A stretch of DNA of 61,604 nt, the filler included, from Schmidtea nova (taxonomy: Eukaryota): the NCBI GenBank assembly GCA_044892505.1. It is 4 parts of 2 records of this genome, joined end to end, with 100 filler letters (N's around TTAATTAATTAA, not from the genome) between each part and the next. Parts side by side here need not be neighbours in the genome. Positions count along the whole stretch, not along the records: positions 28,267 to 48,858 come from CM097882.1; 3 more parts are not named here. One strand, given 5' to 3'. This document shows positions 37,101 through 47,949 of the stretch, one piece after another (position 1 is the first letter of the stretch; each line of letters opens with the position of its first letter). A program made the position numbers and the translations under genes. The notes beneath the pieces are model-generated. The model worked only from the letters and a program-made list of their open reading frames with translations. It was not told the DNA's origin and did not search any database.

Positions 37101-38443
37101 CATTGTTTTCACCAAATGAAGTGATATAGAAATGACGCTAGTAATTTAGGAAATATTAAGCTGGCTAGTAAACAAGATTAAATAATAATTTAACGCATTA
37201 ACGCCCACGTATTACGCTTAATGCGATGCGTATAGCAGCTAATTACCTTACGTAATTACAAAAATATTAATTGCTTTTAAAATCTCAATATTATGCAGTG
37301 TAAATTCGTGTTAGACTTAAAATCATTTTTGATAATAACGAATTAAAATCCGCAATTATCATTTATCAATTTTTTGATACCATATCAAAAATACGGAATT
37401 TCCCATTGCTACCAGCTTGGCCATTTCTCTTTCATTATCAATTCCTTACACTCCGATAATGAAAGAAGATATTTTCTATAATTCAATTATATGATATATA
37501 CCCCCGTAAACACGCAAAAACAAGAACTTTTATCATGAAATTAGAGATAAAAATTTGATATCCTTTTTAATATCTTTTTTTCTTTCTTTGATATCTTTCC
37601 GTATCATAATTGAAATTTTGAAATATATATATATATATACCTAATTCTGTTTTTACACGAATTGCTTTACACGAATTTAATTTACCACGAATAAAAAAGA
37701 ATTTTTTTTCTCTTTTTAAACGAATTGCTTTGTTTTAACACGATTTTCAATACTTTTTTTCCATTCAGCCAATATCTTTTTTTACACGAATTTTTTATCT
37801 ATCGTGTAAAAGCACGAACTAGTCGATAAAAAATTTAAGCGCGTTGAAGATAATAATGGAGGAAAATTAAGTTGAAATATGGATAATTTTAAAATAACAT
37901 TAACAGTTTTATCTTAAAATTTTTAATTTTTAATTTTTGACTTTGTATTTATGTTTATAATATATTTCTAAAGGAAAATATAATTTTCGATTATTACTAT
38001 ATTCTTTTTTTCCATGCTTTATATAAGGTTGCTTTCTATATATATGTGTGTGCCACAAAATTACAAATCAATTTTTAGTGCTTTTCTCTCAACCGATTCA
38101 CTTCAAATTTTGCACACTTGCTCACTTCCGGTGACAATACATGGATATTGAAAAAAAATTTGAAAACAAATTTTTTTTTAAAAATTTTTTTTGAGGACAC
38201 ACGAAAAATGTAATATAATTTTCCCTTCTACAAAATATAACAAAAAAAAATTTCTCAGCCAAGTGGAGTTCTGCTCGCATAAAGCATGGATTTGAAAAAA
38301 GAATTTTTTTTTGATTTACTAGTTTACATTTAAGAACGCAACTAGATTAAATATGATTCCAGTAAAAAATATTTTTTATTTTTTTTAAAAAAAATTGAAA
38401 ATAAAAAAAACTTAATTTATTGATTTATAAATAACATTAGTAG

Positions 38444-38632
38444 TTAAAAAAGTAAGAGGTAAAGCTTTGTGATACCCACTGCAAACCCAAAAAGTAGACT
38501 AGTTTCGAGCCTTTTGCTCTCATCAGTGAATTGCTCTTTCCGTCTCCTGCATAGCACTGATGAGAGCCAAAAGCCCGAAACTAGTCTACTTTTGGGGTTT
38601 TGCAGTAGCTATCACAAAGCTTTACTTTTTAA
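38444..38632. repeat. Head-to-head palindrome (family 2) with two canonical-core HHR motifs
   Basis: Minus: CTGATGA GAGC aaaag GCTC GAAA CTAG TC (38526-38497). Plus: CTGATGA GAGC caaaa GCCC GAAA CTAG TC (38557-38586). 26-bp spacer; arms continue to AAAGCTTT..TTAA. Confidence 0.88.
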
Positions 38633-39209
38633 TATTTGTTTTAAAACAAACAGTCATCCGACAAATATTTTTCTTCATTATGGATATAAACAAAATCAGC
38701 GTTGTTTCTAAAATCCATTTTAAAAAATAAGTCATTAAAAATACAATCAAATTTTATATTTCAAAAAACGAAGCAAATCAAAATTTTCAATTTGAAAAAT
38801 TAGTTTTTATATTTGTTAAGTATTCTGACATATTTTGATTGTTGGTGTTTTGTTGTTTATTTTGTAAAATCAATAAATTACATATTAATCAAAATTTATT
38901 GGTATTCGGAAAAAAAACTTAATTTTAACTGTAAATTTACAATTTTATCATTTACAGAATAAAGACGGGGTAATTTTCCAATGCATAAAATCAACAAAAA
39001 AGTTATGTCAGTCTGTAGATTTTAATTTAGATTAACACAAAATCAGTCGAATATTTGTTAAGGATTTTCCTTAATTTTGATTTCAATTTTTTTCTCAGTT
39101 TTTTATGTCATAAGTTTAAATCGGTCTATAATTTAATCTGCGACATTTTACATTTCAATTCTAATAACTAGCATGTTGTATGGATAGTTATTTATTGAAT
39201 CACACACAC

Positions 39210-39468: not shown

Positions 39469-39744
39469 AATCAAGGCCATCTCTTTCAAGTGTTGCAAAT
39501 CACGGTCTCAACTATGAATCGGCCACCTCGTGCAATGATATATTTGTTAATAAAGTGTGCAAAAATGAACTCCAGAAACTTAATTGCTCTGCTGATTGTA
39601 TCCTAGATTATAGCAAGCAACTCGATTCGGTATGCTTAAGTTGGATTTTATTTACAGTTTCAGCTATTATCTTCATTCTTTCAGACAACAGATGGAAATG
39701 CTTTTAATTTAACACAAATTTTCGGCACTGCCTTTCTTTAAATA
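39469..39744 (+). CDS. Candidate host-gene exons, unknown product
   Basis: Exon 39469-39629 (ESRPSLSSVANH..DYSKQLDS) with AG/GTATG boundaries, a 55-nt intron, then exon 39685-39744 ending TAG. Confidence 0.33.
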
Positions 39745-40394
39745 GCATTTGAAGAAAGCATTGCTGAAAAAGTGTTAAGTTAAAAACATTTTGATCAATA
39801 ATGTATGAGATCCGAAATTGATATTGAAAATTTATATTTTCTTTGAAACAAAAACTTATTTAATTTTTAAAATTCCACAAGGAAATTTACACAAATTTAT
39901 AAAGATAAAATTCCAGTGAAATAATTTGTAAAATTAGCCGTTTTATTGTAATTTCATTTTTAAAATATTTTTTAAAAATTCTACTTTTCCTAAAGAAATA
40001 TTAAATATTTTCAAAAATTGTTATATTATATGGAAAAATAGAAAAACGGGTTGGGAAACTTATTTCTTCACAGATATATTACTCTTTCGAGTTATATATG
40101 TTGGGTTTTTTGATAAGTTGGTTCAAATCTCTGACTCCTCGTGCTACTTTTACAAAATAAGTCACCCAACACAATAACTTTTGTTTAGTTTCTATACACA
40201 ATTACAATCTCGTTAACACTTGTTAATAAAAATCATCTTCCCTTTCTGGTACACAATTTATTGATTTGTATGAACTCTGTAGTTAACCTTCTGAATAACT
40301 CGCAATACTATCTTCAGTAGTAGGATGTGTCCTCGTTTGGTACAGTACCCTAAGGTTACCTAATAATTGACAATCGACCTCTAGATGGCATAAT

Positions 40395-41785
40395 TATTGA
40401 CCACACTGGCGTAACAATTGACATCAATTACATCATTTTGACCCAATTACATAATTTGACACCATCCTGACCTCAATTATATTATTTTGACATCAATTAC
40501 ATCATTTTGACTTCAATCACATCATTTCGACCTCAATTACATCATTTTGACACCAATTACATCATTTTGTTATCAATTACATCATTTTGACCCCAAATAC
40601 ATCATTTTGACCCCAATCATATCATCCTGACATCATTTTGACATCAATTACATCATTTTGACCCCAAATTACATCATTTATATCATTTTGACCCCAATTA
40701 CATCATTCTGACCTTAATTATATCACTTTGACCCCAATCATAGCATTTTGACATCAATTACATCATTTTGACCCCGATTACTTCATTTTAACCCAATCAC
40801 ATCATACTGACATCAAATACATCATTTAGACCTCAGTTACATAATTTTGACATCAATTACATCATTTTGAACCCAATTTCATCATTTTAACCACAATCAC
40901 ATCATCATGACGTCAATTACATCACTTTAACATAAATTACATCATTTTGACAGCAATTACATCATTTCGACCCCAAATTACATCATTTTGATAACAATTA
41001 CATCATTTTGACATCAATTATATCATTTTTGACAACAATTACATCATTCTGACCTTAATTATATCACTTTGACCACAATCATATCATTTCGACCTCAATT
41101 ACATCATTTTGACACCAATTACATCATTTTGTTATCAATTACATCATTTTGACCCCAAATACATCATTTTGACCCCAATCATATCATCCTGACATCATTT
41201 TGACATCAATTACATCATTTTGACCCCAAATTACATCATTTATATCATTTTGACCCCAATTACATCATTCTGACCTTAATTATATCACTTTGACCCCAAT
41301 CATAGCATTTTGACATCAATTACATCATTTTGACCCCGATTACTTCATTTTAACCCAATCACATCATACTGACATCAAATACATCATTTAGACCTCAGTT
41401 ACATAATTTTGACATCAATTACATCATTTTGAACCCAATTTCATCATTTTAACCACAATCACATCATCATGACGTCAATTACATCACTTTAACATAAATT
41501 ACATCATTTTGACAGCAATTACATCATTTCGACCCCAAATTACATCATTTTGATAACAATTACATCATTTTGACATCAATTATATCATTTTTGACAACAA
41601 TTACATCATTCTGACCTTAATTATATCACTTTGACCACAATCATATCATTTTGACATCAATTACATCATTTAGACCTCAATTACATCATTTTGACCTCAA
41701 TTACATCATTTTGACACCAATTACATCAATTTGACCTCAATTACATCATTTTGACACCAATTACATCATTTTGACCTCAATTATG
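40395..41785. repeat. 20-bp satellite (consensus ACATCATTTTGACMYCAATT, ~70 units) with a 562-bp higher-order duplication
   Basis: Diagnostic variants recur exactly 562 bp apart (GTTATCAATT at 40569/41131; GACGTCAATT at 40909/41471). Confidence 0.95.
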
Positions 41786-41789
41786 TCAA

Positions 41790-42345
41790 ATATGACCACA
41801 GTTACATCACAATTGATTACCATGTATGTAAGCAAGTGTTGTTCAGATATGACTGTAGTTTCTGGCAATATGTGCGTAGATATTATCGGAAAAAGAGTGG
41901 CGGCTGTTCTGTTTGGAACATTAGACAGTAAACATTCGTCAGTTTGTCGACATATACCTACAAACACACACTGTTGAGGTAATACTCGACCAACACAGTT
42001 TTTGCGACGAGTAAACAGCCTTTCGTCGATTTCTACCGTAGTGTTAGGCCCACCTATGACAATGGGATTATTGATCAATGTATTAACGCACACCTCAAAG
42101 CTAGTTGTTCCAGTCTATGACAGATGACTTGATAATTTCAAGCAGTTTCATAGAAACGTATCCTTTGGCCACCAATAAATAAACAAAACTATTTGCCTGT
42201 ACGATAGCCGAGATCCTTGTAAGCATGTCCATTGCCTAACAGGCATATCTTGACGACATGAACTCTGGCGACATCTCCAACGATCCTGTCAATCTGTCAG
42301 CGACTAAGTCATGATATGGTTGTTTGAACAGTGACGCAGGCAATG
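41790..42345 (-). mobile_element. Merlin (IS1016/ISXO2-like) transposase remnant, N-terminal and catalytic part
   Basis: WRCRQSSCRQ Zn-ribbon, then IGGPNTTVEIDERLFTRRKNCVGRVLPQQCVFVGICRQ..VPNRTAATLFPII..ILPETTVISE; homology stops at the satellite. Confidence 0.85.
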
Positions 42346-46454: not shown

Positions 46455-46489
46455 TTTCAATTGCATCATCTCGAAATGGGAGTATTATT

Positions 46490-46739
46490 AGTTTAAACTA
46501 TATTGTTTGATCGTGCACATCCTTTTTCCAAAAAAAGGTGTAAAGACAATTGATTGCATTTTAAATTTAAAAACAAGAGCGACATATGATCGTTTTTCTT
46601 TTATATCTCGGACAATTTCTCCCTCGACAGTAGTTGTAAAACTGTGTTTCCTCTCTGTCATAATTTTCATTAGATAATCAGTTAAGTTTCCTCCTGATAA
46701 ATCAATTTTAACAATAGCAATAGGTAAAGCATATTCTTC
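46490..46739 (-). pseudogene. act: Actin pseudogene fragment
   Basis: [57 protein letters not shown] matches actin [57 protein letters not shown]. The following [13 protein letters not shown] resembles LFQPSFLGMESCGI after an internal deletion. Confidence 0.9.
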
Positions 46740-47949
46740 GGTAACCCGCTGTTGGTCACGCGACGGCGCAGCGCTCACCCTATCGATTTTTGCCGTTTTT
46801 TTGTATGAAACATATTAAGTAGCGGGTCCCTCTACTTTCCCAGAATGATGTTTTTTTCAATATTACATGCTGGTCTTTCAACAATCATTTCTTCATTTTT
46901 AGATTCAATGGCATCAGTTTGACGATTGCCATTAATTCTAAATATTGACGTTCTTGTGATTTTTGTTGTAGTTTCGGTTTTTTGAAGAATATTTTCTCTT
47001 TGAATCCAAAATATTTGCAAAGAGCCTTCGGAAACACAATATTATCGTGTAATTGTGCAATTACTTTCGGGTTTTGGAGTTTTATAATAATTTCTAATCG
47101 TTTATTACCATTTAAATATTTTCTTTTATCCATCGTAAGGAATAAAATCAATGTAAGTAGATTTATTGGAGAAAAAATAGGAAAAATTAATAACGAAAAA
47201 ACGCTCTCTGTTAAGTACGAATTTATTCTCTATATTCAATTTGTGTACTTAAGCGCAAGATTACTGTACTTGAAGAGGTGGTTTCAAAAAAAAGTAGGTG
47301 CGTTAAACTAAAAGATATTAATTTTATTTTAACACCTCTATTCAATAATTAGTATAACTGAATGTAATAAAATAAGGTTAACCTAAAATTGAAAAAGTTC
47401 TTTTACACATAAATGTAGTGGTTTATCTGGTTTGATGTGATTATTTGTCATTGAAATTTGTTGCATTACATTAACAACTTTTGGTGTTTATACAAAAATG
47501 GATGAATGCTAATAATTCTGAAACATATTCCATGTTTCAGTTTGCTCTAATCTTTTTTCCCTTTTTTGTTTCCCAATTTTAAAACTCAACTGAAAAAGTA
47601 ATTAGTATAAATAAAAGCCATCTCCTATGTTTATCGCTGTTGATGTTGCTGATAAATAGGATGACAATGAGAAAACAAAGTTCTAATTTCAAAAGTGATG
47701 TCTAATTTTTTATTTATTATTTAGTTTTTTATATGAAGACTATTGAACAAACTTTTATAAATTTAAAATTGGCACACGAATTTTGAAATAAATAATTTTT
47801 CAATCAAGTCTTTATATAAAAAATAAATGAAAATTTGTGAAATAGAAACAAAGAGATAAAAGGGTGTTAGTAAAAGATGTTAATGCAGTGTTTCTCAATC
47901 ACTACACCATCACATTGATGAGGATACCTAAATAATAAATAATATTATA

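What the first reader, a model, noticed from the sequence alone, without database searches (positions are those of the whole stretch)
38444..38632. ORF-less head-to-head palindrome carrying a canonical hammerhead core on each strand
Seen: two copies of CTGATGA-GAGC/GCTC-GAAA-CTAG-TC diverge from a 26-bp spacer inside ~80-bp inverted arms, with no RT ORF nearby. Known: PLEs carry minimal type-I HHRs with a palindromic helix III that need dimers to cleave, and PLEs often form inverted ends. Inference: this may be a non-autonomous hairpin-like retroelement that presents a ribozyme whichever strand is transcribed. An unrelated family shows the same architecture 4.5 kb away (33865-34054), so it may be a recurring unit rather than an accident. 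Stem I is partly broken in both copies here, so this copy is probably decayed.
Basis: partly seen in the sequence, partly recalled or inferred. Interest (0 to 1): 0.72.

Follow-up and report, generated by a model that had tools for sequence, protein, structure and literature searches.

The report
Dead back-to-back ribozyme repeat, U1 motif
This palindrome is a decayed, back-to-back pair of pieces of a very common self-cutting-RNA repeat, likely pasted in by a Penelope-type jumping gene in a known pattern; neither half is predicted to fold into a working ribozyme, and the odd part is that the repeat family carries the first 11 letters of the U1 splicing RNA just ahead of its ribozyme.

Summary
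The palindrome is real: arms 38447-38528 and 38555-38637 (72 of 83 columns alike), each with a hammerhead core. It is not a two-way ribozyme. The left arm lacks the 5' strand of helix I, the right arm has helices I and II broken, and read-through RNA folds into one long hairpin that hides both cores. Both arms are pieces of an abundant non-coding repeat with a canonical, retrozyme-type type I hammerhead; a single, non-inverted copy lies at 30237-30376. The layout matches published Penelope-like (PLE) insertions: an inverted truncated copy, a 30-45-nt tail on one arm only, no clear target duplication. A second family, the 3' repeat of a GIY-YIG-bearing element, forms such palindromes at 33861 and, without any ribozyme, at 28018. 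Of six other inverted junctions of this family seen in contigs, none keeps both cores. Two details stand out. The arms meet inside a small family hairpin whose loop belongs to the tail-less arm, which favours two annealed cDNAs over fold-back. And the family carries the U1 snRNA 5' 11-mer about 45 nt before the core, internal rather than terminal; I found no paper on it. No RNA evidence was obtainable.

The parts
38447..38528 (-). Inverted arm: tail-less piece of the repeat family; hammerhead core 38497-38526, helix II intact, helix I 5' strand missing
38529..38538 (-). Rest of the inverted arm after an 18-nt gap: upper 5' stem and loop of the family's small hairpin, in the orientation of the inverted arm
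   Evidence: window letters compared with loose-end consensus; centre printed
38537..38542 (.). Junction of the two arms, inside the self-complementary hairpin stem (2 shared T, one base lost or two changed)
   Evidence: read directly; exact crossover not fixable
38539..38637 (+). Direct arm: helix I 5' strand, core 38557-38586 (cut site after 38586), helix II with one broken pair (38575), helix I 3' strand broken (38588, 38591), 3' body
   Evidence: (table 3)
38630..38673 (+). One-sided 3' tail (30-45 nt; start not sharp) ending at the family's main 3' boundary
   Evidence: loose ends behind 38672/38673: 45+61 contigs in X1, 31 in X2, 24+35 in X3, 23 in X4; shared with 30345-30376
30237..30376 (+). 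Single, non-inverted copy of the same family, tailed; helices I and II fully paired, C3 of the core changed to A; 5'-truncated in the hairpin
   Evidence: (Rfam HH9, E 0.0073, below gathering)
33861..34067 (.). Comparison: palindrome of an unrelated family (3' repeat of a GIY-YIG-bearing element); minimal hammerhead with U3-A8 core; inverted arm lacks helix I; extension on the right arm only
28018..28166 (.). Comparison: palindrome of that second family cut 3' of the ribozyme, so with no hammerhead; one end runs into masked N
798..1981 (+). Comparison: HTH/GIY-YIG ORF of PLE aspect (798-1787) followed by the 3' repeat (1878-1981) that the 33k and 28k palindromes are made of

Best explanation
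The palindrome is one decayed insertion of an abundant non-coding hammerhead repeat (retrozyme-like), likely written in by a Penelope-type reverse transcriptase as two back-to-back cDNAs, and it is predicted to be inactive as a ribozyme on both strands. Shown: both arms are family sequence; one arm has the tail, the other not; they meet inside the family's self-complementary hairpin; they share three changes that are rare in the family. Inferred mechanism: the PLE protein extends both ends of a DNA break on uncut (or circular) family RNA, starting at two sites 30-45 nt apart (left end tail-less, right end tailed). Both cDNAs run through the hammerhead and stop at the hairpin. Having the same sense, they can pair only where the sequence is self-complementary, so they anneal through the hairpin stem and repair fills in. 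Both templates came from one source locus with an already broken helix I, or the arms were later converted to each other. An 18-nt deletion at the centre and about 10% drift between the arms followed. The family itself likely is transcribed from a captured U1-type snRNA start (U1 5' 11-mer 45 nt before the core, with family sequence continuing upstream of it), cut by the hammerhead as a dimer through the palindromic helix III; this last step is inference only.
For: Inverted truncated copy plus one-sided 30-40-bp tail is the described PLE pattern (PMC8557442 passages); a PLE protein extends both strands and starts at two sites that bound the tail, and hammerhead cleavage is not needed for insertion (PMC11167929 passages). 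Tail on the right arm only; same asymmetry in the 33k palindrome. Two 3' end classes in contigs: 38672/3 and about 40 nt earlier (222 and 119 contigs loose behind 30326, long contigs stopping at 30326-30328). No target duplication above 6 nt and none at the junctions. Hairpin loop lies in the orientation of the tail-less arm, which cannot have templated the tail. Six other left-arm-to-right-arm junctions have unequal break points, e.g. 38528>38643 joins an inverted copy running through the whole hairpin to the tail alone. Shared changes at 38588, 38591, 38605 and their mirror sites are not among the letters reaching 3%. Family majority keeps C3 and full helices; helix I and II probabilities 0.89-1.0 in the 30k copy, 0 in read-through RNA.
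Against: No partner PLE was identified: no sequence shared between this family's 3' end and a PLE was found in the window, and no genome is held. One search, laid on a single arm, listed no opposite-strand joint among 3142 and 1626 contigs; it also missed this locus's own junction, so it is insensitive, but it gives no support. The six junctions rest on 1-2 contigs each, sides 26-36 letters, at 80% likeness, 15 of 26 joints shown. The tail-less end class is blurred because the 30k reference diverges at 30327-30345. Full unit length, tandem arrays and the promoter were not seen. The U1 match tested is 11 letters against the human sequence, not the host's gene.
Confidence: 0.7

Rival explanations
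1. Snap-back: one cDNA folds back on the hairpin and copies itself, giving the second arm.
For: Junction lies in the hairpin stem, nearly in register; explains the three shared rare changes directly.
Against: The loop is in the orientation of the left arm, so the left cDNA would be the one that folded back, yet it lacks the tail found on the right arm; other junctions are asymmetric. Needs a later loss of the left tail exactly to the family's second 3' end.
Confidence: 0.12
2. A single tailed insertion was later duplicated in inverted form at DNA level (replication slip or break repair at the hairpin), with no second reverse transcription.
For: Also explains shared rare changes and the hairpin junction; arms are closer to each other (64 of 71) than to the 30k copy (55 of 64 each).
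Against: The left arm stops where many family copies stop; the same one-sided-tail layout recurs in an unrelated family at 33861-34067 and in print for PLEs.
Confidence: 0.1
3. One reading: a dedicated hairpin retroelement that offers a ribozyme on whichever strand is transcribed.
For: Core letters intact on both arms; a second palindrome has cores on both arms.
Against: Inverted arms lack helix I in both palindromes; read-through RNA hides both cores; ribozyme-free palindrome at 28018; 0 of 6 other junctions keep two cores; single copy at 30237.
Confidence: 0.04
4. Assembly artefact (chimeric fold-back read).
For: PLE inverted structures are known to trouble assemblies; no listed contig spans the whole palindrome.
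Against: Arms differ at 7 of 71 columns; contigs in two runs cross flank, left arm and centre into the right arm with no difference.
Confidence: 0.02

Closest known systems
Metazoan non-LTR retrozymes (Cervera and De la Pena 2020, PMC7229834, passages read; Li, Clavereau and Pollet 2026, bioRxiv 10.64898/2026.07.22.740005, part 1 of 5 and passages read)
   Same: Non-coding, abundant repeat with a canonical type I hammerhead (6-bp helix I with distal helix, 4-bp helix II, palindromic helix III); dispersed monomers; proposed dependence on PLEs.
   Different: Full tandem units and circular RNA not shown here; U1 5' motif and inverted pairs are not mentioned in the passages returned (no hit for 'snRNA' in the preprint, none for 'inverted' in the main text of PMC7229834).
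Insertions of endonuclease-bearing Penelope-like elements (PMC8557442, PMC11167929, PMC4209133; passages read, part 1 of 4 of the last)
   Same: Inverted 5'-truncated copy, one-sided tail, two 3' ends, opposite-strand hammerhead pairs ('dual min-HHRs ... in opposite strands').
   Different: This family has no ORF attached in the window and a canonical, not minimal, hammerhead; junction in a self-complementary hairpin is not described in the passages seen.
SINEU of crocodilians (Kojima 2015, PMC4494074, part 1 of 5 and passages read)
   Same: Non-autonomous retroposon holding U1 5' sequence.
   Different: Here only 11 letters were matched, they are internal (12 more shared letters upstream), a hammerhead follows, and the insertion pattern is PLE-like, not Tx1-like.
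Newt satellite 2 (Coats et al. 1994; not held, seen only as cited in PMC2220036)
   Same: Hammerhead repeat said to be transcribed from an internal snRNA-type promoter: a precedent for the promoter idea.
   Different: Whether it holds transcribed U1 sequence could not be checked; no promoter was seen here.

Membership tests
Canonical metazoan type I hammerhead | Conserved core CUGAUGA..GAAA..UH | tested here: met
   Both arms; family majority has C3 (C in about 99% of depth at 30265)
Canonical metazoan type I hammerhead | Helix I 6 bp, helix II 4 bp, short palindromic helix III | tested here: met
   Met for the family and the 30k copy
Canonical metazoan type I hammerhead | Same helices in the two arms of this locus | tested here: not met
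   Helix I probability 0 in both arms; helix II 0 (right) and 0.27 (left)
Canonical metazoan type I hammerhead | Self-cleavage as monomer or dimer | not testable with these tools
   Bench assay needed
Non-LTR retrozyme | Non-coding, high-copy repeat with type I hammerhead | tested here: met
   903-3142 contigs per run laid on 200-600 bases (these include flank repeats); the one 103-aa frame over the 30k copy has no Pfam hit
Non-LTR retrozyme | Tandem units each with a hammerhead | tested here: inconclusive
   Only a few 'goes back' joints (38646>38541, 38672>38551, 30326>30266); unit length unknown
Non-LTR retrozyme | Linear and circular monomer RNA | not testable with these tools
   No RNA holder listed
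PLE-type insertion | Inverted 5'-truncated copy adjacent at the 5' end | tested here: met
PLE-type insertion | 30-40-bp tail on one end only | tested here: met
   30-45 nt on the right arm only
PLE-type insertion | 3' end shared with an autonomous PLE | tested here: inconclusive
   None in the window; genome not held
PLE pLTR with minimal hammerhead | Short helix I (4-5 bp), unpaired base before helix II | tested here: not met
   38k family has the canonical build; the 33k family has the minimal build with U3-A8
SINEU | U1- or U2-derived head at the 5' end | tested here: not met
   The same 12 letters precede the motif in X1 (115 contigs) and X3 (77 contigs); no Rfam U1 hit on the 3' body at E up to 10

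The most novel reading that the evidence does not exclude
The family is a retrozyme that captured a U1 snRNA gene's promoter and first bases, so that an external Pol II promoter became internal to a tandem or circular unit and every full copy can transcribe itself as a capped RNA with a U1 5' end able to pair with splice donors; and its inverted insertions record how PLE integration ends: two cDNAs, one from each side of the break, joined through a self-complementary hairpin of the template.
Probability: 0.3. Interest if true: 0.68.

Novelty: new variant of a known kind. Interest (0 to 1): 0.38.

Why it matters
The palindrome as such is an ordinary by-product of Penelope-type insertion. It matters in two smaller ways. 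How PLEs make their inverted ends is called an open question in PMC8557442; loop orientation against tail position is a simple test that separates fold-back from two-cDNA joining and can be run on thousands of copies. And how animal retrozymes are transcribed is unclear; an exact U1 5' motif ahead of the ribozyme names a candidate start site and promoter, and, if transcribed from there, an abundant RNA that could pair with splice donors.

Tried and rejected
Whole genome: not held. Rfam on the whole window at E up to 1: no hammerhead or U1 hit, only hairpin-driven miRNA matches below gathering; miRNA reading rejected. SINEU-type head: my reading, dropped after one search showed shared sequence upstream. 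A U1 loop-II likeness in the 3' body: 7 letters, no Rfam support; rejected. Pattern scan for U1 5' motif plus hammerhead core in metagenome contigs: 2 hits, neither with helix II or family likeness on reading; taken as chance. Scan of viral contigs for a U1 gene to compare with: 0 hits. Pfam gave no family for the two PLE-like ORFs; their label rests on Atlas feature hits (HTH_animal/GIY-YIG 0.96; DUF8422/RT-domain 0.97) and recalled PLE motifs. No RNA holder listed. Look-alike search of earlier notes by sequence: nothing. The U1 11-mer could instead be a perfect splice donor on the opposite strand; not excluded, but I saw no reason for an antisense intron. Papers: searches; none listed a hammerhead repeat with a U1 5' motif (17: one review, unrelated passages; 21, 34, 48: zero papers). 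Coats 1994 not held. Repbase/Dfam entries and supplements were not seen and may hold this family.

Full report
Setting. The window is AT-rich (16-41% GC per 2 kb), full of TA runs and transposon debris: two Ty3/gypsy-type elements, DDE fragments, an actin fragment, and ORFs of PLE aspect. It reads like an animal genome; earlier notes on the same genome call it a planarian, which I did not test. No whole genome is held, so family-level evidence comes from contigs of four public runs of one study.

The observation. The arms align over 83 columns with 72 matches, far above 1000 shuffles (109 against at most 37). Both carry CTGATGA, a 13-nt helix II region, GAAA and CTAGTC; ACTAGT is self-complementary, the palindromic helix III that PMC4209133 links to dimer cleavage. 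Contigs cross the left flank, left arm and centre into the right arm without a difference, and the arms differ at 7 of 71 columns, so an artefact is unlikely; no listed contig spans the whole.

The family. A second copy lies at 30237-30376, single and not inverted. It folds into a full type I hammerhead frame: 6-bp helix I, a 2-by-2 internal loop and a further 4-bp helix, 4-bp helix II (pair probabilities 0.89-1.0; Rfam HH9 E 0.0073, below gathering). Its core C3 is an A, but about 99% of the depth has C there. This is the canonical build of PMC4209133 and of metazoan retrozymes, not the minimal PLE build. 3142 contigs of X1 and 1626 of X3 lie on the 209-base stretch; depth is no copy number, but the family is clearly abundant. 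Its main 3' end is 38672/3 in all four runs. A second end about 40 nt earlier is suggested by 222 and 119 contigs that go loose behind 30326, by long contigs that stop at 30326-30328, and by lower depth over the tail, with the caveat that the reference diverges just there. A few 'goes back' joints hint at partial tandems; the full unit was not recovered.

Neither arm is a working ribozyme. The right arm has two breaks in helix I and one in helix II; the left arm has no helix I 5' strand. RNA read through the palindrome folds into one hairpin of -115 to -126 kcal/mol with probability 0 for both helices on either strand. The same holds for the palindrome at 33861-34067, whose arms are the 3' repeat that follows the GIY-YIG-type ORF at 798-1787: its inverted arm starts at the core and lacks helix I. 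A third palindrome of that family, at 28018-28166, is cut 3' of the ribozyme and has none. Among the 15 of 26 joints shown, six distinct ones lead from the left arm to the right arm, that is, other inverted junctions of this family; none keeps a core on both sides (1-2 contigs each). So the inverted layout recurs, but two cores are an accident of where the arms stop. PMC8557442 describes the inverted truncated copy and the one-sided tail, and PMC4209133 notes opposite-strand hammerhead pairs 100-700 bp apart.

How the two arms were joined. Contigs show what normally precedes 38541: ATACTTACCTGGCGCGAAGAGCAATTTTCG (X2 row; 72-124 contigs per run at this place). By eye this holds a hairpin with a GCAA loop. 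The '26-bp spacer' is made of it: 38529-38538 is the reverse complement of the 5' stem and loop, after an 18-nt gap in the left arm, and the rest is the direct 3' stem and helix I strand. The crossover thus lies in the stem, where both orientations read almost alike. Both arms share three changes (38588, 38591, 38605 and mirror sites) that do not reach 3% in the family, so they come from one source or were converted later. My first reading was snap-back. Earlier notes on other genomes proposing two-armed insertion made me check orientation: the loop belongs to the left, tail-less arm, which could not have templated the tail of the right arm. With the unequal break points of the other junctions (one joins an inverted copy running through the whole hairpin to the tail alone) this favours two cDNAs, each primed at one side of the break from one of two start sites, as the anole PLE protein does in vitro (both strands extended, two starts bounding the tail, cleavage not required), then annealed through the hairpin stem. 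This step is inferred. Against it: one search listed no opposite-strand joint, though it also missed this locus's own, and no helper PLE was matched. No target duplication was found.

The U1 motif. The first 11 letters of that upstream consensus equal the U1 5' end given in PMC12527174. Chance of an exact 11-mer in 190 nt on two strands is about 1 in 10,000, before allowing for the many motifs one might have noticed. It lies about 45 nt before the core and is lost from both window copies. It is not the 5' end: the same 12 letters precede it in X1 and X3 (agreement 0.74 and 0.78 over 30 letters), so this is not a SINEU head. That figure cannot tell whether some copies also start at the motif. 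The simplest use for it is a captured snRNA start site with its promoter inside a tandem or circular unit, for which newt satellite 2 is a cited precedent. A strong antisense splice donor is the alternative. Two earlier notes report 16-17 U1 letters in such repeats of other genomes; they are unchecked leads, not support. Ten paper searches listed no report of this feature; subscription papers, Repbase and supplements were not seen.

Verdict. Observation largely right, interpretation of a two-way ribozyme wrong. A known insertion pattern of a known kind of element, with one undescribed feature of the family (U1 5' motif) and one informative junction. New variant of a known kind; interest 0.38.

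Noticed in passing
window 28018-28166: Palindrome of the 33k family with no ribozyme; centre made of short mixed-orientation repeats; flanked by masked N.
   Followed up: partly
window 39710-39810: Old, decayed small palindrome with weak likeness (71%) to the 33k family's hammerhead region.
   Followed up: no
window 798-1981: HTH/GIY-YIG ORF of PLE aspect with its 3' repeat; the hammerhead has the U3-A8 core variant reported for Cercyon elements.
   Followed up: partly
window 13297-14316 (+) and 4660-5064 (-): RT-like fragment of PLE aspect (ends in masked N) and a second GIY-YIG-like fragment; neither hit Pfam at E 0.01.
   Followed up: partly
window 19275-24067 and 50954-54897: Two Ty3/gypsy-type elements with direct repeats of 228 nt (100%) and 157 nt (99%), hence recent.
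   Followed up: no
window 14361-15302: Array of 39-nt diverged tandem repeats with strong strand skew, possibly a coding repeat.
   Followed up: no
window 40414-41849: 20-nt tandem array with higher-order period of about 560 nt and strong GC skew.
   Followed up: no
window 38250-38333 and 30170-30238: Both family copies lie beside or in other repeats (high contig depth).
   Followed up: no
window 46488-46814 (-): Decayed actin fragment (Pfam E 0.0008), probably a pseudogene.
   Followed up: no
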